Counted from the stretch's first letter, positions 11,315 through 17,420 are shown. The stretch: 24,000 bases of DNA from an uncultured Clostridia bacterium (GCA_934757865.1 CAKVLS010000001.1:243545-267544), one strand, 5' to 3'. Notes: generated from the sequence alone by a model not told the origin. Program-made: numbers and translations.

Positions 11315-11317
11315 ATT

Positions 11318-11527
11318 ATGACATTTGAACAAAATGAAAAAAGACTTGAAGAAATAGTTAATCTTTTGCAAGGAGATGTTACCCTTGAAGAAGGCACTAA
11401 ACTTTTTGAAGAGGGCGCAAATCTTATTAAAGAAAGTTTGAGTCTTTTGACCAAAACAAAAGGTAAAATTGAAACAATAAACAAAGATTTAGATAAATTT
11501 ATAAATGATACAGAGGTTAATGAATAA
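11318..11527 (+). CDS. xseB: Exodeoxyribonuclease VII small subunit
   Basis: 69 aa. Begins FEQNEKRLEEIVNLLQ and lies immediately after xseA. Confidence 0.9.
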   Translation: MTFEQNEKRLEEIVNLLQGDVTLEEGTKLFEEGANLIKESLSLLTKTKGKIETINKDLDKFINDTEVNE

Positions 11528-13254
11528 TGTATTTATCAAAATTAGTTGGAGAGAGAAGTAAACAAACTCCAAGTGGAGCTATTGTAAAAAATCATATTAT
11601 GCTACTTAGAGCAGGATATATTAAGCAAGTAGCGTCTGGTATATATACTTTACTTATGCCAGCACAAAAGAGTATATTAAAAATAGAAAAAATCGTTCGT
11701 GACGAGATGGATAAAATCGGCGGACAAGAGATGTTGTTCCCAGTTGTTATGCCAAAAGAACTTTGGGACGAAAGTGGCAGATATTCTTCTATTGGCGATG
11801 AGATGGCAAGATTTAATGATAGAAACAACCATGGTATGGTACTAGGCATGACTCACGAAGAGGCAGCTGTACACACTGTTCGCAATATTATTAAGAGTTA
11901 TGATCAGTTGCCTGTTATGATCTACCAAATGCAAACAAAATTTAGAGATGAGCCTCGCCCAAGGGCTGGACTTATAAGAGTAAGAGAGTTTACTATGAAA
12001 GATGCTTATTCTTTCCATATGACTCAAGAAGATCTTGAAAAATATTATCAAGTTGTTTTTGATTCGTATAACCGCATCTTTAAGAAAATAGGTATGAAGA
12101 ACTTTATATCAGTTCAAAGTGATACTGGTATGATGGGTGGTAAAGTTGCTCATGAGTTTATGCTTCTTACACCATCAGGAGAGGACAATCTTGTACTATG
12201 CGATAGTTGTGATTATAGAGCTAATCAAGAGGTTGCTGATTGTGTATTTGAAAAAGTTAATGGTGAAGATAAGCCTCTTACACTTGTGGCAACTCCTCAT
12301 TGTAAGACTATTGATGAAGTTTGCAGCTTCCTAAAATCAAAACCTGAGCTAAGTTGCAAAGCTGTTTGCTATGCTGTTAAAGGCGATAACAACCGTAGCG
12401 TAGTTGTATTTATTAGAGGCGATTTAGAGGTTAATGAGATTAAACTAAGTAAGATTGTTAAAGCTGAAGTTGTTCCTAATGACTTAACTAATAGCAAGCT
12501 TGTTGCAGGTTTTATTGGACCTTACAACATAGAGCTTGATGACGGAACAGAAGTCGTTTTTGATAAATCTTTAGAATGTATGCAAGGACTTATTGCTGGT
12601 GGTAACAAAGAAGGCTTCCACTATGAGGGGCTTTCTATGTCAAGAGATGTAAAAGATGCTAAGTTCTATGATATAGCTAATGTTCAAGAGGGCATGACTT
12701 GTCCTAAGTGTGGTAAAGGTCATCTTCATCTAAGCAAAGGTATTGAAATAGGAAATATCTTCCAACTAGGTACTAAATACACTAAGAGTATGGGTATGAC
12801 TGTACATGATAAAGATGGCAATGAAATTAACCCAATCATGGGCTGCTATGGTATAGGTATAGGCAGAGCTCTTGGTAGTGTTCTTGAAGAGTGGAGTGAT
12901 GAAAAAGGACTTGTATTCCCAATGAGTATAGCTCCATGGCAAGTTGTTTTGTGTCCTTTGAGACTAAATGACGAAAAGGTTCTTGCAGAGACAAATAGAT
13001 TGTATGAAGAACTTACAAAGAGCGGAGTTGAAGTTCTTTATGATGATAGAGATATTTCAGCTGGTGCAAAGTTTGCCGAAAGCGAGCTTATGGGTATGCC
13101 AATAAGAGTGGTAGTAAGTCCAAGATCGTTAGAAAATGGCGAAGTTGAAATAACAATTCGTAAGTCTGGCGAAAAGATTATGGAAAAGGCAGAAAATGCT
13201 GTTTCAAAAGTAAAAGAATTGATTGCTGCCGAGATGAAAGAGTACAAGTGTTAG
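11527..13254 (+). CDS. proS: Prolyl-tRNA synthetase (bacterial type with editing insertion)
   Basis: 575 aa. Class II motifs (FRDE.RPRAGL.R.REF.MKDAYSF; GCYGIG..R), a central INS-like region and a C-terminal anticodon-binding domain. The start overlaps the xseB stop (TAATG). Confidence 0.9.
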   Translation: MYLSKLVGERSKQTPSGAIVKNHIMLLRAGYIKQVASGIYTLLMPAQKSILKIEKIVRDEMDKIGGQEMLFPVVMPKELWDESGRYSSIGDEMARFNDRNNHGMVLGMTHEEAAVHTVRNIIKSYDQLPVMIYQMQTKFRDEPRPRAGLIRVREFTMKDAYSFHMTQEDLEKYYQVVFDSYNRIFKKIGMKNFISVQSDTGMMGGKVAHEFMLLTPSGEDNLVLCDSCDYRANQEVADCVFEKVNGEDKPLTLVATPHCKTIDEVCSFLKSKPELSCKAVCYAVKGDNNRSVVVFIRGDLEVNEIKLSKIVKAEVVPNDLTNSKLVAGFIGPYNIELDDGTEVVFDKSLECMQGLIAGGNKEGFHYEGLSMSRDVKDAKFYDIANVQEGMTCPKCGKGHLHLSKGIEIGNIFQLGTKYTKSMGMTVHDKDGNEINPIMGCYGIGIGRALGSVLEEWSDEKGLVFPMSIAPWQVVLCPLRLNDEKVLAETNRLYEELTKSGVEVLYDDRDISAGAKFAESELMGMPIRVVVSPRSLENGEVEITIRKSGEKIMEKAENAVSKVKELIAAEMKEYKC

Positions 13255-13267
13255 GATATTTATTAGT

Positions 13268-13296
13268 AAGGGCGATTTTGTCGCCCTTATTTTTTT
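13268..13296 (+). terminator. Rho-independent terminator after proS
   Basis: Stem AAGGGCGA (13268-13275) pairs with TCGCCCTT (13281-13288). The loop is TTTTG and the U-tract runs to 13296. Confidence 0.85.
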
Positions 13297-13388
13297 GATC
13301 AAAATTGTATTGCTAATTTACTTTTGTCTATTATTTAACCCGAAAAAGTTTAATTTTTGAGCCAATTAGCTAATTACTTTGAAAACAC

Positions 13389-13417
13389 TTGAAAATTATC
13401 ATAATTTATGCTATAAT
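13389..13417 (+). promoter_or_regulatory. Near-consensus sigma-A promoter driving the large ncRNA
   Basis: TTGAAA (13389-13394), exact 17-nt spacer, extended -10 TGcTATAAT (13409-13417). Predicted start near 13424-13426. Confidence 0.7.
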
Positions 13418-13424
13418 CTCAATA

Positions 13425-14010
13425 TACATATATTAAGATACAGTATTCTAGTCGAGAGATGTTGTTTGGAAGGTGATTTAGTCATAAAGCACCATAGAGC
13501 ACATCGATGAAACTTCTGGTGTGTGCTTCGGTTGCCCAAACTGGGGTGCATGCTGGAAGGTAGAATTATGGAAGGACTATAACGGCATATAGTTTTCTCT
13601 CCATTTTTCGCGGAGGCTTATCTCGGTAAATAGGTCTAATGGTCTTATTTACTGACTAAGATTAAACCTGCTATGCGGCAAAATATAAAGCTGTGTACAG
13701 AGTAGCTTGCTATGAGTGGAGTATTGCGAATTAGTGTCTTAGTGGCTGTTTGCTGGCCGGCGACAGCTACTATCTGGCTATGAAACATATTCTGCAAAAA
13801 TAGATAAAAACGGCGTCTTTCGTTAAGGAAAACTTCTAGACTGTTAACAAGTATTTGTTTTGCTTATTAGGGATTATAGTGTGGTCTTATAGGCGATTTG
13901 GTTAGGCGAGTGGTAACACCGCCTTGCGGAGATTAAATGGAAACGGCTTGTGCGGCGACGGCAAGTTCTCAGTAGGGAAATCCTACCAAACCAATGCCGC
14001 AAGGTTTACT
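13425..14010 (+). ncRNA. ole: Large (~580 nt) highly structured non-coding RNA, best interpreted as an OLE-class (ornate, large, extremophilic) RNA
   Basis: No ORF in the supplied track occupies this gap on either strand. It has a dedicated promoter, and G+C is ~50% in several 60-nt blocks versus ~25% in flanking spacer (hand counts). Multiple helices are listed in the findings, including an 11-bp hairpin 13740-13772, a GUAA-capped hairpin 13905-13923, and a 14-bp long-range helix 13663-13680/13995-14008. No terminator precedes the downstream 4-TM protein gene. The neighbourhood (asp23, nusB, xseAB ... argR, recN) matches published OLE loci. The boundaries are approximate. The class assignment rests on context and architecture, not on a verified consensus match. 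Confidence 0.6.
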
Positions 14011-14076
14011 TAATAAGTATTCTTAATTAATATGTATATTTTTTATAATATAATGGAGTAGAATAAATAATTTATT

Positions 14077-14682
14077 ATGGAAAGTCCGAGTGGTGAAAAC
14101 CCGAATAGTACCAAACAAAAACCTCAAAAAGATAAAGTAACAACAAAGAATAAAAAACCTTTCAAATACGCATGGCCAATTAAAGCTGGTATATTAACAC
14201 TTATGCTTGCTCTTATGTTTGGCGTATTGTCAGAGGTGCTTTTGTCCAACGCAAGTATAGTTATAGCAATCATCGTTATAGTATTCCTTATGGCAATTAG
14301 TATTGTATTTGATCTTATAGGTGTTGCATTTGCTTGTTGTCCGTTGGAGCCTATTCTTGCAATGGCGTCAAGAAAGGTAAGAGGTAGTAAGGCTGCCATT
14401 GCCATGGTAAGAAGAGGAGACATTGTATCTTCTGTTTGCTCTGACATTATAGGTGATATGTGTGGTATCCTAAGTGGTGCTGCAGGTGCTGCTGTTGCGG
14501 CAAAAATTATTATGTCACAAACTGGAGCAGTAGCGGTAATTATTGCGTCTGTTGTATCAGCTGTTATTACAGCTCTTACTGTATTTGGTAAAGCTATGTG
14601 TAAGCGTCTTGCTGTTGAAAAATGTGTTCCTATTGTATCTTTTGTAAGTAAATTATTAAGCATTTTTAGTAAGAACAAATAA
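14077..14682 (+). CDS. oapA: Small four-TM membrane protein with a basic N-terminal tail, OapA-like (OLE-associated protein A candidate)
   Basis: 201 aa. Lys-rich N-terminus (KQKPQKDKVTTKNKKPFKY) followed by four predicted TM helices carrying intramembrane acidic residues (SIVFDLIG, CSDIIGDMCG). It lies directly downstream of the structured RNA with no intervening terminator. The Shine-Dalgarno is weak or absent (GGAG is 18 nt upstream). Confidence 0.6.
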   Translation: MESPSGENPNSTKQKPQKDKVTTKNKKPFKYAWPIKAGILTLMLALMFGVLSEVLLSNASIVIAIIVIVFLMAISIVFDLIGVAFACCPLEPILAMASRKVRGSKAAIAMVRRGDIVSSVCSDIIGDMCGILSGAAGAAVAAKIIMSQTGAVAVIIASVVSAVITALTVFGKAMCKRLAVEKCVPIVSFVSKLLSIFSKNK

Positions 14683-14717
14683 TCTAATAATATAGAAAAA
14701 TAATAGAGTAGTACCGA

Positions 14718-14746
14718 GTAGTACCTGTTTTGGGTGCTACTTTTTT
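14718..14746 (+). terminator. Rho-independent terminator after the OapA-like gene
   Basis: Stem GTAGTACC (14718-14725) pairs with GGTGCTAC (14733-14740), with one G-U pair. The U-tract spans 14741-14746. The left arm is part of a perfect tandem 10-nt duplication, GAGTAGTACC x2 (14706-14725). Confidence 0.75.
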
Positions 14747-14912
14747 ATTTTATTTAGAGATTTTGGGCTGTTTTAAGCTATCTTAGTCTCTACATTTTGT
14801 GATGGGGTTGTGTTTAATATTTTCGCTTATATACAATATTTTGTATACATTTATATTTATGCAATACTATATGTATGGTTTTTCTATTTTCTGTATGTTT
14901 ATGCAAAAAATT

Positions 14913-15017
14913 ATTGCATAAATATTCAAAAAGTACTTGCATAAATATTTATCAAAGTGTATAATTATGTTCGAGCGATTGAAAATTTATGCATAAATAT
15001 TTATGCATAATTATAAA
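14913..15017. promoter_or_regulatory. Cluster of ARG boxes (ArgR/AhrC operators) upstream of argR
   Basis: Four 18-bp sites have the form TGCAT-N4-ATTCA/ATTTA/ATAAA: 14913-14930 (atTGCATAAATATTCAaa), 14936-14953, 14988-15005 and 15002-15019. The last two form a perfect 20-bp palindrome, ATGCATAAATATTTATGCAT (14989-15008). Compare the ARG-box consensus TNTGAATWWWWATTCANW. Confidence 0.65.
14937..14965 (+). promoter_or_regulatory. Candidate sigma-A promoter of argR, overlapped by an ARG box
   Basis: TTGCAT (14937-14942), 17-nt spacer, TATAAT (14960-14965). Confidence 0.5.
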
Positions 15018-15043
15018 CCCCAAAAAAAAGGAGATATAGAGCT

Positions 15044-15627: not shown

Positions 15628-15662
15628 GAATCATTTGCGCTTATCTCGCAAGTGATTTTTTG
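15628..15662 (+). terminator. Rho-independent terminator after argR
   Basis: 10-bp stem ATCATTTGCG (15630-15639) pairs with CGCAAGTGAT (15647-15656), with one G-U pair. 7-nt loop, then U-tract 15657-15661. Confidence 0.8.
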
Positions 15663-15719
15663 TTATTTATTGTTGTTATTTTTGGTCATATTTGTTATAA
15701 TTTTAGCAGGTGGAATTTT

Positions 15720-17420
15720 ATGTTAAGTTATCTAAAAATAAATAATGTAGCTTTGATTGATAGTCTTACGATTAACTTTTGTGATGGCTTTAATGTTTTG
15801 ACCGGCGAAACAGGTGCTGGTAAAAGTATTATTGTTGATTCCCTAACTTTTGTTTTGGGCGGAAAAGTTAACAAAAATCTTATCAGGTCTGGACAATCTC
15901 AAATGAGAGTCGAGGCTATGTTTGACGGTCCTTTTGACAAGAAGATAACTGACATTTTGGCAGAATATGATATAGAAGAAGATGGCGAGCTTTTGATAAC
16001 TAGGTCTTATACAGAAAATGGCAAAAACGATATAAAAGTTAACGGCAGCACCATTACAACAACTATGCTAAAACCTATAACCTCAGCCTTAGTAGATATT
16101 TTGGGTCAACACGAGCACCAGTCTATTTTGAAAGAGAAATTCCAACTAGATATAATAGATATATTGGGCGGAACAGATATAAGCTTGCTAAAAGTAAATG
16201 TAAGTGACCTTTATACAAAACTTCAAAATATCAATAGAGAGATAGAATCTCTAGGTAGTGATGCTCACAGTAGAGAGCGTATGATGGACCTTCTACAATA
16301 TCAAATAAAAGAAATAGAAACCTTTGGGCTAAAAGAAGGCGAAGAAGAAGAACTTACTAATGAAAGGCTAAAAAGTCTAAACGGCGAAAAGATAACAACA
16401 GGTCTTAACCTTGCTTGTAACGAATTATCTAACGCTAATTACAGCGTTTGTGATGGCATCAAAAAGTCTATCTCAGCTCTAAATAGTATCGTAAAATATG
16501 ATGAGAGATTAGACAATATAATTGCTAGATTAGACTCGGCTAAGATAGAACTTCAAGATATAGCTGATACATTAGAGCAGTATAACGAAGAGTGCACTTT
16601 TGATGAGAGCTATTTTGAGAAAATAGACAAGAGGTTAGACGAACTAAAAAGCCTAAAGAAAAAGTATGGTTCAAGCTACGAAGAAATAATGCAGTTCCTA
16701 AATAGCGCAAAAACTGAGTTTGACAATTTGGTTAATAGCGAAGGTAGACTAAGAGAGCTGAATGACGAAAAGGCACAAGTTGTAACAGAGTTATACAAAG
16801 ACTCTGTTAAACTATCAAATGCAAGAAAATTGACAGCCAAAAAGTTTGAGTTCCTTGTAAAAGGACAGCTTGATGACCTTGGTATGAAAAATGCTAATTT
16901 CCAAATTGACTTTGAGCCATTTGGCGATAAAGACGAGGTTAAGTATACATCTAACGGACTTGATAAAGTTACATATATGTTCACCGCCAATGTAGGTCAG
17001 CCGTTGAAATCTCTATCTGAAATTATCTCTGGTGGTGAGATGAGCAGATTTATGCTAGGACTAAAAAATATACTAGCTGATATAGATGATATCGGCACTA
17101 TGGTATTTGACGAAATTGACACCGGTATTAGCGGTAATATCGGTTATGTTATAGCTTGCATGATGGCTAACATCTCTCACAAGCACCAAGTTATAGCTAT
17201 ATCTCATTTACCTCAAATAGCTGCTATGGCAGATAAAAACTTCTTTATAGAAAAAACCATAGTTAATGTCGACACTGTAACTAGTCTAAAAGAGCTTGAC
17301 GAGGCTGGCGTTCTTACAGAAGTTTCTAGACTATCTGGTGGACAGAGCGGAAGTCTTGTTTCTCTAGACCATGCAAAAGAGCTAAGAGATACTTGTAACA
17401 ATTATAAAAAAAGTATTTAG
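15720..17420 (+). CDS. recN: DNA repair protein RecN
   Basis: The track ORF starts at TTG 15660, inside the argR terminator. ATG 15720 is preferred because AGGTGG lies upstream and the canonical N-terminus MLSYLKINNVALIDSL begins there. Contains Walker A (GETGAGKS), a long coiled coil and the SMC signature (SGGEMSR) with Walker B (MVFDEIDTG). Confidence 0.9.
   Translation: MLSYLKINNVALIDSLTINFCDGFNVLTGETGAGKSIIVDSLTFVLGGKVNKNLIRSGQSQMRVEAMFDGPFDKKITDILAEYDIEEDGELLITRSYTENGKNDIKVNGSTITTTMLKPITSALVDILGQHEHQSILKEKFQLDIIDILGGTDISLLKVNVSDLYTKLQNINREIESLGSDAHSRERMMDLLQYQIKEIETFGLKEGEEEELTNERLKSLNGEKITTGLNLACNELSNANYSVCDGIKKSISALNSIVKYDERLDNIIARLDSAKIELQDIADTLEQYNEECTFDESYFEKIDKRLDELKSLKKKYGSSYEEIMQFLNSAKTEFDNLVNSEGRLRELNDEKAQVVTELYKDSVKLSNARKLTAKKFEFLVKGQLDDLGMKNANFQIDFEPFGDKDEVKYTSNGLDKVTYMFTANVGQPLKSLSEIISGGEMSRFMLGLKNILADIDDIGTMVFDEIDTGISGNIGYVIACMMANISHKHQVIAISHLPQIAAMADKNFFIEKTIVNVDTVTSLKELDEAGVLTEVSRLSGGQSGSLVSLDHAKELRDTCNNYKKSI

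What the first reader, a model, noticed from the sequence alone, without database searches (positions are those of the whole stretch)
14077..14682. Co-transcribed basic-tailed 4-TM protein: candidate membrane anchor (OapA-like) for the large RNA
This 201-aa ORF starts 67 nt after the last RNA helix, with no terminator between them. It has a strongly basic, probably cytoplasmic N-terminal tail (10 Lys in the first 31 residues). It has four TM helices with acidic residues inside TM segments (FD in TM2, SD..GD in TM3). That is the expected design for a membrane protein that binds an RNA, and it matches the described OapA partner of OLE RNA. It lacks a properly spaced Shine-Dalgarno, so translation may depend on the upstream RNA context. 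An antisense mirror ORF (14124-14678) is most likely an artefact of Ala/Ile/Val-rich codons.
Basis: partly seen in the sequence, partly recalled or inferred. Interest (0 to 1): 0.65.

Follow-up and report, generated by a model that had tools for sequence, protein, structure and literature searches.

The report
OapA membrane partner of OLE RNA

Summary
The ORF at 14077-14682 (+) is real. It lies 57 nt after the last helix of a full-length OLE RNA (Rfam RF01071, 380 bits, 13419-14040).

It is an OapA orthologue:
- It is 34% identical (E 2e-23) to a published OapA sequence.
- An OLE RNA lies upstream on the same strand in 74 of 79 testable homologue loci.
- It has four TM helices.
- It has invariant intramembrane Asp residues D79, D123 and D127. 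D123/D127 align with the DxxxD pair mutated in the H. halodurans PM1 mutant.
- It has a position-conserved basic loop (R99, K100, R102, K105, R112) plus K172/K176.
- It gives the published sub-threshold CNNM/DUF21 match (23.3 vs 28.4 bits).
- Its AlphaFold2 model matches only CorB/CorC transmembrane domains.

A strong promoter (13389-13417) and two terminators (13265-13291, 14716-14742) enclose ole and oapA as a two-gene unit. Relatives keep this layout.

- There are 8 Lys, not 10, in the first 31 residues.
- The Lys-rich N-tail varies between lineages and is not the conserved basic element.
- The misplaced Shine-Dalgarno (18 nt) is real but specific to this lineage, and no leader structure supports RNA-dependent translation.

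The antisense ORF is a composition artefact. Verdict: already known, low interest.

The parts
13265..13291 (+). Intrinsic terminator-like hairpin ending the upstream proS gene. It marks the 5' boundary of the ole-oapA unit.
   Evidence: 12-bp stem followed by a T run. proS identified.
13389..13417 (+). Sigma-70-type promoter TTGAAA-17-TATAAT with an extended -10 TG, directly in front of the OLE RNA.
   Evidence: 11/12 match. The same promoter is at the same place in relative L001, and a weaker one in L002.
13419..14040 (+). OLE (ornate, large, extremophilic) RNA gene, full length.
   Evidence: RF01071, 380.2 bits (gathering score 50), E 1.4e-108, model positions 1-616.
14020..14076 (+). A/T-rich 57-nt spacer between the last OLE helix and the oapA start. 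It has no terminator. Its only GGAG (14055-14058) lies 18 nt before the ATG. The promoter-like match at 14027-14054 is not conserved.
14077..14682 (+). oapA coding sequence (201 aa plus stop).
14077..14169 (+). Residues 1-31: disordered Lys-rich N-terminal tail (8 K, net charge about +5). Predicted cytoplasmic by the positive-inside rule. Length and sequence vary among homologues.
   Evidence: (pLDDT below 50 for residues 1-20).
14170..14247 (+). TM1 (residues 32-57), with W33 and E53 nearly invariant. It lies outside the CNNM-like region. It may be a signal-anchor; the literature treats the equivalent helix of C. botulinum OapA as a signal sequence.
   Evidence: PMC12265935.
14257..14337 (+). 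TM2 (residues 61-87) with invariant D79 (codon 14311-14313). Aligns to the start of the CNNM/DUF21 profile.
14341..14424 (+). Basic loop between TM2 and TM3 (residues 89-116), formed of two short helices. R99, K100, R102, K105 and R112 are conserved in at least 88% of homologues. This is the family's conserved positive cluster.
   Evidence: The published description of a conserved positive cluster on the cytoplasmic face is in PMC12265935.
14416..14511 (+). TM3 (residues 114-145), carrying the invariant motif D123-x-x-G126-D127-x-C129-x-I131-x-S133-G134. D123/D127 are the counterparts of the PM1 pair D100/D104 of H. halodurans OapA.
   Evidence: PMC9723947.
14527..14667 (+). TM4 and the juxtamembrane/C-terminal amphipathic helices (residues 151-197). 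S161 is nearly invariant (>=90%); K172 and K176 are invariant.
14716..14742 (+). Intrinsic terminator-like hairpin plus T run, 34 nt after the oapA stop. It marks the 3' end of the unit.
   Evidence: Equivalent terminators follow oapA in L001 and L002.
14124..14678 (-). Antisense 184-aa ORF. It is a composition artefact, not a gene.
   Evidence: plus direct reading of the frame. Stops in this antisense frame require a sense Tyr codon, or a His/Gln codon preceded by a codon ending in T. The protein has 1 Tyr, 0 His and 3 Gln. The same frame is open over at least 150 of 170 codons in 29% of homologues, and substitutions follow the sense frame.

Best explanation
The ORF is oapA, the gene for OLE-associated protein A.

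What is shown or directly supported here:
- It is transcribed from the promoter at 13389-13417 as the second gene of a two-gene ole-oapA unit that ends at the terminator 14716-14742.
- The product is a small integral membrane protein with four TM helices, with both ends and the TM2-TM3 loop predicted to face the cytoplasm.
- Helices 2-4 and the short cytoplasmic helices form a CNNM/DUF21-like transmembrane domain. The CBS-pair and CorC domains found in MpfA/CorB/CorC Mg2+ transporters are absent.

What is inferred from work on H. halodurans OapA:
- The protein dimerises.
- It binds OLE RNA with at least 2:1 stoichiometry.
- It is what brings the RNA to, and possibly into, the membrane.
- The conserved basic loop (R99, K100, R102, K105, R112) and K172/K176 are the most likely RNA-contacting surface. 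The Lys-rich N-tail of this lineage may add non-specific electrostatic affinity.
- The invariant buried D79/D123/D127 with S133/S161 most likely form a divalent-cation site, so the complex acts as an RNA-regulated Mg2+ (or similar) transporter or sensor in stress adaptation.

Identity, fold, gene order and co-occurrence are shown here. RNA binding, dimerisation, membrane localisation and ion handling are inferred.
For: - OLE RNA lies immediately upstream on the same strand.
- The ORF is real and under purifying selection in the sense frame.
- It is 34% identical over 173 residues, E 2e-23, to the sequence labelled OapA in the AlphaFold 3 input table of Kretsch et al. 2025. D79, D123 and D127 align to its D55, D98 and D102.
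- At least 590 relatives exist in GTDB genomes.
- All 20 loci tested with Rfam have an OLE on the same strand upstream. Counting nhmmer plus Rfam, 74 of 79 loci with usable flank do.
- The median distance from the OLE end to the conserved motif is 420 nt in those loci, against 412 nt in the window.
- The CNNM PF01595 match is sub-threshold, 23.3 bits against a 28.4 cut-off, covering residues 66-198. 73/76 homologues also hit CNNM. This is the behaviour published for OapA (PMC11332333).
- The AlphaFold2 model has mean pLDDT 80.8 and pTM 0.72.
- The six best Foldseek hits in the PDB are MtCorB 7M1T/7M1U and the CorC TM domain 7CFF/7CFG, probability 0.98-1.00. All other hits have probability 0.21 or less.
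- The invariant DxxGD pair matches the i/i+4 spacing of PM1 D100A/D104A.
- The basic loop is conserved.
- The unit architecture of terminator, promoter, OLE, oapA, terminator is seen in the window and in relatives L001 and L002.
- The neighbourhood xseA-xseB-proS-ole-oapA-argR-recN-spoIVB-spo0A fits the Bacillota ole cluster.
Against: - Nothing tested contradicts the identity.
- No experiment exists for this protein.
- The species of the published comparison sequence was not visible in the text I read. That sequence is machine-read, and its Asp numbering (98/102) is two short of the published D100/D104.
- Six homologue loci have no OLE within 3 kb, so adjacency is not universal.
- A promoter-like match at 14027-14054 (10/12) sits in the spacer, so some independent transcription cannot be excluded.
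- Ion transport by any OapA remains a hypothesis in the literature.
Confidence: 0.92

Rival explanations
1. The protein is a truncated, free-standing CNNM/MpfA-type cation transporter that merely happens to lie next to the RNA and has no physical link to it.
For: - It has CNNM-like sequence and fold.
- Six homologue loci have no adjacent OLE.
Against: - 74/79 loci keep OLE directly upstream on the same strand across hosts labelled Clostridia, Bacilli and Thermoanaerobacterium.
- It lacks the CBS and CorC domains and falls below the Pfam CNNM threshold.
- It is homologous to a published OapA.
- The literature reports direct binding for the H. halodurans orthologue (PMC12265935).
Confidence: 0.03
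2. oapA is OapA, but it is expressed mainly from its own promoter in the spacer (TTAATA-16-TATAAT, 14027-14054) rather than by read-through from OLE.
For: - A 10/12 promoter-like match lies in the spacer.
- OLE RNAs are abundant stable RNAs, so separate control of the protein would be reasonable.
Against: - The region is A/T-rich. The scan finds 11 such matches against 8.0 +/- 2.8 expected by chance.
- The -10 hexamer is changed in L084, which encodes the identical protein, and is absent in L001 and L003.
- No + strand promoter-like site lies in the spacer of L001 or L002.
- No terminator separates OLE from oapA.
Confidence: 0.1
3. The Lys-rich N-tail plus TM1 is a cleavable or non-functional signal or anchor sequence. 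The mature, functional protein would be the three-helix CNNM-like core, and the N-tail would play no part in RNA binding.
For: - TM1 lies outside the CNNM match, which starts at residue 66.
- The literature refers to an N-terminal signal sequence of C. botulinum OapA and omits it from models (PMC12265935).
- Tail length and sequence are not conserved, ranging from 7 to 53 residues.
- S-N-A-S follows TM1, loosely resembling a signal peptidase site. This is read directly from the sequence.
Against: - W33 and E53 in TM1 are at least 90% conserved.
- TM1 is modelled with pLDDT 87-88.
- The small-x-small motif after TM1 is not conserved in the alignment.
- A 36-residue n-region is atypical for a signal peptide (general knowledge).
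Confidence: 0.15
4. The antisense ORF 14124-14678 is the real gene, or a second overlapping gene.
For: It is 184 codons long and open. The same frame is open in 29% of homologues.
Against: - Substitutions against relatives peak at the third position of the sense frame.
- The sense protein has hundreds of homologues, a confident fold and a known family.
- The open antisense frame follows from the scarcity of Tyr, His and Gln codons in a TM protein.
Confidence: 0.01

Closest known systems
OapA (OLE-associated protein A; BH2780 of Halalkalibacterium halodurans; CLB_RS09010 of C. botulinum)
   Same: - The gene lies immediately downstream of ole on the same strand.
- The protein is about 200 aa with four TM helices.
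- It has a conserved basic cytoplasmic cluster.
- It has the invariant DxxGD aspartate pair (the PM1 positions).
- It shows weak CNNM/DUF21 homology and a CorB-like fold, with no CBS or CorC domains.
- It is 34% identical to a published OapA sequence.
   Different: - It has a longer Lys-rich N-terminal tail: 32 residues before the conserved Trp, against 9 in the published sequence, which carries its Lys-rich tail at the C terminus.
- ole-oapA here has its own promoter and flanking terminators, and sits between proS and argR without ispA, dxs, tlyA or nadK.
- The SD is displaced to 18 nt.
- The host is an uncultured human-gut Clostridia lineage, not an extremophile.
MpfA / CorB / CorC (CNNM-family Mg2+ transporters; PDB 7M1T, 7M1U, 7CFF, 7CFG)
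   Same: The transmembrane DUF21 fold matches over about 140 aligned columns (Foldseek probability 0.98-1.00, TM-score 0.54 normalised to the query for 7M1T). Polar and acidic residues are buried in the TM helices.
   Different: - The Pfam score is below the family cut-off (23.3 against 28.4).
- There is no CBS pair and no CorC/HlyC domain.
- There is one extra N-terminal TM helix.
- It is genetically tied to an RNA, which is proposed in the literature to stand in for the missing regulatory domains (PMC11332333, PMC12265935).

Membership tests
OapA (OLE-associated protein A) | The gene lies immediately downstream of an OLE RNA gene on the same strand. | tested here: met
   OLE is at 13419-14040 (+) and the ORF at 14077-14682 (+). 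The same arrangement holds in 74/79 homologue loci.
OapA (OLE-associated protein A) | Sequence homology to a protein published as OapA. | tested here: met
   BLASTP gives 34% identity over 173 aa, E 2e-23, against the OapA sequence in the supplement of PMC12286853. The sequence is machine-read and its species was not visible. It is also 35% identical, E 2e-34, to the OLE-adjacent gene of Thermoanaerobacterium butyriciformans, L064.
OapA (OLE-associated protein A) | A small protein (about 21 kDa) with four predicted transmembrane helices. | tested here: met
   The protein is 201 aa. Hydropathy and the AlphaFold2 helices 32-57, 61-87, 114-145 and 151-181 agree. No dedicated topology predictor was available.
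OapA (OLE-associated protein A) | [quoted passage not shown] | tested here: met
   R99, K100, R102, K105 and R112 are conserved at 88-99%. K172 and K176 are at 100% and K192 at 93%. The sidedness is inferred from the positive-inside rule and was not tested.
OapA (OLE-associated protein A) | Two strictly conserved aspartates four residues apart (D100/D104 in H. halodurans; the PM1 mutant). | tested here: met
   D123 and D127 are invariant in 76 homologues. They align with the DVIGD of the published OapA. The PM1 definition is from PMC9723947.
OapA (OLE-associated protein A) | Weak CNNM/DUF21 similarity, ranking just below true MpfA proteins, and a CorB-like TM fold. | tested here: met
   PF01595 gives 23.3 bits against a cut-off of 28.4. 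73/76 homologues also hit it. The top six Foldseek hits are CorB/CorC. The published pattern is in PMC11332333.
OapA (OLE-associated protein A) | Binds OLE RNA cooperatively (at least 2:1) and is required for its membrane localisation. | not testable with these tools
   This needs EMSA or filter binding, plus imaging of co-expressed RNA and protein.
CNNM / MpfA / CorB / CorC Mg2+ transporters | The PF01595 CNNM domain scores above the curated threshold. | tested here: not met
   23.3 bits is below the 28.4 cut-off.
CNNM / MpfA / CorB / CorC Mg2+ transporters | A tandem CBS pair and a CorC/HlyC domain follow the TM domain. | tested here: not met
   The protein ends at residue 201, right after the TM domain, and Pfam finds no other domain.
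CNNM / MpfA / CorB / CorC Mg2+ transporters | The DUF21 transmembrane fold. | tested here: met
   Foldseek against 7M1T_A gives probability 1.00, TMq 0.54 and rmsd 3.6 over 140 columns.

The most novel reading that the evidence does not exclude
In this gut Clostridia lineage the long, disordered, Lys-rich N-terminal extension of OapA is a functional addition rather than a topogenic signal. Such an extension is absent from the published OapA, which carries its Lys-rich tail at the C terminus. The extension would wrap or charge-shield OLE RNA at the membrane. That could supply part of the 'missing shield' needed by the recent model in which OLE helices span the bilayer. Terminal basic tails would then be an interchangeable RNA-handling module of OapA proteins.
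Probability: 0.1. Interest if true: 0.45.

Novelty: already known. Interest (0 to 1): 0.15.

Why it matters
OLE RNA with OapA is one of the few large bacterial non-coding RNPs whose biochemical function is still unknown. Recent cryo-EM work suggests the RNA may span the membrane.

This window adds one more clean example from an uncultured human-gut spore-former. It is compact, a single self-contained promoter-ole-oapA-terminator cassette of about 1.35 kb. That could make it a convenient construct for heterologous co-expression.

It does not change what is known. The value of this check is that the ORF can now be annotated as oapA rather than as a hypothetical protein.

Tried and rejected
- NCBIfam has no model for the protein.
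- Sequence searches of the PDB found nothing significant, either with the single sequence or with a 76-sequence profile (best E 0.65, a CatSper chance hit). Only the fold comparison linked it to CorB/CorC.
- I looked for the authors' custom OapA HMM in the supplement of PMC11332333. It is not held there; the file has only 5 kb of text.
- I could not retrieve the H. halodurans BH2780 sequence by name. I used the OapA sequence from the supplement of PMC12286853 instead. The part of the table I read did not show its species.
- I tested the idea that an RNA structure in the leader compensates for the misplaced SD. Region 14017-14110 folds at -9.4 kcal/mol against -11.5 +/- 2.8 for shuffles (z +0.75), so there is no support. 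An all-A/U palindrome (AATAAATAATTTATT, 14062-14076) between the GGAG and the ATG is too weak to count.
- I tested the internal promoter idea by comparing spacers. The match is not conserved.
- I considered the antisense ORF as a gene and rejected it.
- I checked six OapA-homologue loci without OLE for a divergent RNA. Rfam at E<=0.01 found none, and the upstream DNA there is coding.

Full report
**1. What is in the sequence**

The mechanical ORF list gives a 201-codon ATG ORF at 14077-14682 on the + strand and a 184-codon ORF at 14124-14678 on the - strand. Rfam's gathering-threshold scan of the whole window returns one hit. It is OLE RNA (RF01071) at 13419-14040 (+), 380.2 bits against a gathering score of 50, E 1.4e-108, covering model positions 1-616. 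By the structure line of that alignment the last paired base is 14019, so the ORF starts 57 nt after the last helix.

The first 31 residues hold 8 Lys, not 10, with 3 acidic residues.

Hydropathy and an AlphaFold2 model built on 76 homologues (mean pLDDT 80.8, pTM 0.72) agree on four long hydrophobic helices:
- 32-57
- 61-87
- 114-145
- 151-181

Two short helices (90-98 and 104-112) lie in the TM2-TM3 loop. A C-terminal amphipathic helix spans 183-197. The first 20 residues are disordered (pLDDT below 50).

**2. Is the ORF real, and is the antisense ORF real?**

The protein has 127 database homologues with E <= 1e-3, the best at E 4e-114. At least 590 relatives occur in the species-representative genome collection.

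Codon-aligned comparison with relatives shows differences concentrated at sense-frame third positions:

| Relative | Differences at codon positions 1 / 2 / 3 |
|---|---|
| L002 | 41 / 25 / 95 |
| L001 | 61 / 37 / 107 |

This shows purifying selection on the + strand frame.

The antisense frame reads sense position 3 plus positions 1-2 of the next codon. A stop there requires a sense Tyr codon, or a His/Gln codon preceded by a T-ending codon. The protein has 1 Tyr, 0 His and 3 Gln, so the frame is open by composition. The same frame is open over at least 150 of the last 170 codons in 29% of homologues.

**3. Transcription unit**

The consensus scan finds these sites:
- A terminator-like hairpin at 13265-13291, right after proS.
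- A near-perfect promoter TTGAAA-17-TATAAT with an upstream TG at 13389-13417, ending 2 nt before the Rfam match.
- No terminator between OLE and the ORF.
- A terminator-like hairpin plus T run at 14716-14742, 34 nt after the stop codon.

The same order of terminator, promoter, OLE, oapA, terminator is found in relative L001, which is 62% identical in protein and has the identical promoter hexamers. A weaker promoter occupies the same place in L002.

A 10/12 promoter-like match at 14027-14054 lies in the A/T-rich spacer of the window. Several results argue it is a chance match:
- The region yields 11 such matches against 8.0 +/- 2.8 expected.
- The -10 hexamer is altered in L084, which encodes the identical protein, and is absent in L001 and L003.
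- No + strand match lies in the spacer of L001 or L002.

Co-transcription is therefore the best reading, but it is inferred and not shown.

**4. Shine-Dalgarno**

The only GGAG in the spacer (14055-14058) ends 18 nt before the ATG. Other genes in the window with a GGAG-type motif have it mostly 5-12 nt upstream.

It is lineage-specific, though. L001 and L003 have AAGGAAGAGAG or AAAGGAATAAG directly before the ATG. L002 shares the long spacing seen in the window.

The leader (14017-14110) folds no better than shuffled sequence, at -9.4 against -11.5 +/- 2.8 kcal/mol (z +0.75). Nothing supports translation that depends on the upstream RNA structure. An unstructured A/U-rich leader is the simpler explanation.

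**5. What the protein is**

*Sequence families and fold*
- Pfam gives one match: CNNM (PF01595, formerly DUF21), residues 66-198 against profile positions 1-128 of 181. The score is 23.3 bits, below the 28.4 cut-off.
- 73 of 76 homologues also hit CNNM at E <= 0.01.
- NCBIfam and PDB sequence searches are empty.
- The six best Foldseek matches of the model in the PDB are all CNNM-family transmembrane domains: MtCorB 7M1T and 7M1U, and CorC 7CFF and 7CFG. Their probability is 0.98-1.00. For the chain-A matches to MtCorB (7M1T_A, 7M1U_A) the TM-score is 0.54 and the rmsd 3.6 A over 139-140 columns. Every later hit has probability 0.21 or less.

This is the published signature of OapA. Fernando and Breaker (PMC11332333) report three relevant points. 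[quoted passage not shown] An AlphaFold2 model of H. halodurans OapA overlays on MtCorB 7M1U. [quoted passage not shown]

*Direct homology*
- The sequence labelled OapA in the AlphaFold 3 input table of Kretsch et al. (PMC12286853 supplement) aligns with the window protein at 34% identity over 173 residues, E 2e-23.
- W33, D79, D123 and D127 match its W10, D55, D98 and D102.
- That text is machine-read. Its numbering is two short of the published D100/D104, and I could not see the species.

*Co-occurrence*
- 20 of 20 homologue loci scanned with Rfam carry a full OLE RNA (353-528 bits) upstream on the same strand.
- A profile built from those hits finds OLE in 73 of 80 loci, and Rfam adds L071.
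- One locus has no upstream flank, so the count is 74 of 79 testable loci. They are labelled Clostridia, Bacilli, Christensenellales, Oscillospiraceae and Thermoanaerobacterium.
- The distance from the OLE end to the conserved GDxCGILSG motif has a median of 420 nt, against 412 nt in the window.

**6. Conserved residues and likely mechanism**

Across 76 homologues, D79, D123, G126, D127, C129, I131, S133, G134, K172 and K176 are invariant. W33, E53, G82, S98, K105 and S161 are at least 90% conserved.

The PM1 dominant-negative mutant of H. halodurans OapA is D100A/D104A (PMC9723947). These are two strictly conserved aspartates (PMC7936274). D123/D127 have the same spacing and align to the same DVIGD motif.

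*Basic residues*
- The position-conserved ones are R99, K100, R102, K105 and R112 in the TM2-TM3 loop, plus K172, K176 and K192.
- The N-tail is basic in 88% of homologues (net charge at least +3, median 8 K/R). Its length ranges from 7 to 53 residues and it has no conserved positions apart from K26.
- The published OapA has only 9 residues before the conserved Trp and carries a Lys-rich C-terminal tail instead.

*Topology.* All three basic regions fall on the same side under an N-in, four-TM topology. This follows from the positive-inside rule and is inferred.

*Mechanism, by homology.* An OapA dimer binds OLE RNA (at least 2:1), brings it to the membrane, and probably handles a divalent cation through the buried Asp/Ser site. 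The RNA possibly replaces the CBS and CorC regulatory domains of MpfA-type transporters (PMC11332333, PMC12265935). None of this was or can be tested here.

**7. Context and source**

Pfam annotation of the neighbours and the called genes on identical contigs give this gene order:

infB ... truB ... spoIIIAA-AH, asp23, nusB, xseA, xseB, proS, OLE, oapA, argR, recN, spoIVB, spo0A, and a D-Ala-D-Ala carboxypeptidase (Peptidase_S11).

This is the usual Bacillota block in which ole sits, in a spore-former. The exact protein occurs on 12 contigs, including assemblies from Hadza human-gut samples. The window is 34% G+C.

**8. Verdict**

The thing is a known system, an unannotated orthologue of OapA next to its OLE RNA.

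Lineage-specific details are the own promoter and terminators, the long Lys-rich N-tail and the displaced SD. These are minor. Interest is low.

Noticed in passing
L038, L040, L044, L048, L063, L067 (whole loci): Six OapA-homologue loci have no OLE RNA within 3 kb upstream. nhmmer and Rfam at E<=0.01 both find none, and the DNA upstream is coding. The literature calls OLE and OapA almost completely mutually inclusive, so OLE may lie elsewhere in these genomes, or these may be OLE-less paralogues.
   Followed up: partly
L071:1087-1589: A Bacilli MAG carries a short OLE RNA (503 nt, 238 bits) upstream of its oapA. It is probably one of the published variant OLE classes.
   Followed up: no
L055 (whole locus) and L006 (whole locus): OLE plus oapA sit on contigs binned as 'Corallococcus sp.' (locus 43-47% G+C, against the roughly 70% I recall for that genus) and as 'Spirochaetales bacterium' (31-35% G+C). 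These are most likely mis-binned Bacillota contigs rather than OLE outside Bacillota.
   Followed up: partly
window 14053-14061: ATGGAGTAG is a two-codon mini-ORF overlapping the only GGAG of the OLE-oapA spacer. Compared with L001 and L003, the window and L002 have about 16-18 extra A/T-rich bases between the GGA-rich element and the oapA ATG.
   Followed up: partly
window 13389-13417 and L001:2267-2295: The OLE promoter hexamers, the 17-nt spacer length and the extended -10 TG (TTGAAA-17-TATAAT) are the same in a relative whose OapA is only 62% identical. This suggests strong constitutive expression of the RNA.
   Followed up: partly
window 11315-15043: Between xseA/xseB and argR this genome has proS, ole and oapA. 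From memory of the published cluster, H. halodurans has ispA, dxs, tlyA and nadK flanking ole, and those genes are absent here. The ole cluster is rearranged in this lineage.
   Followed up: no
window 15660-17420: The mechanical recN ORF starts at a TTG 20 codons upstream of the start called on identical contigs (566 aa against 586 aa). The shorter ATG start is probably correct.
   Followed up: no
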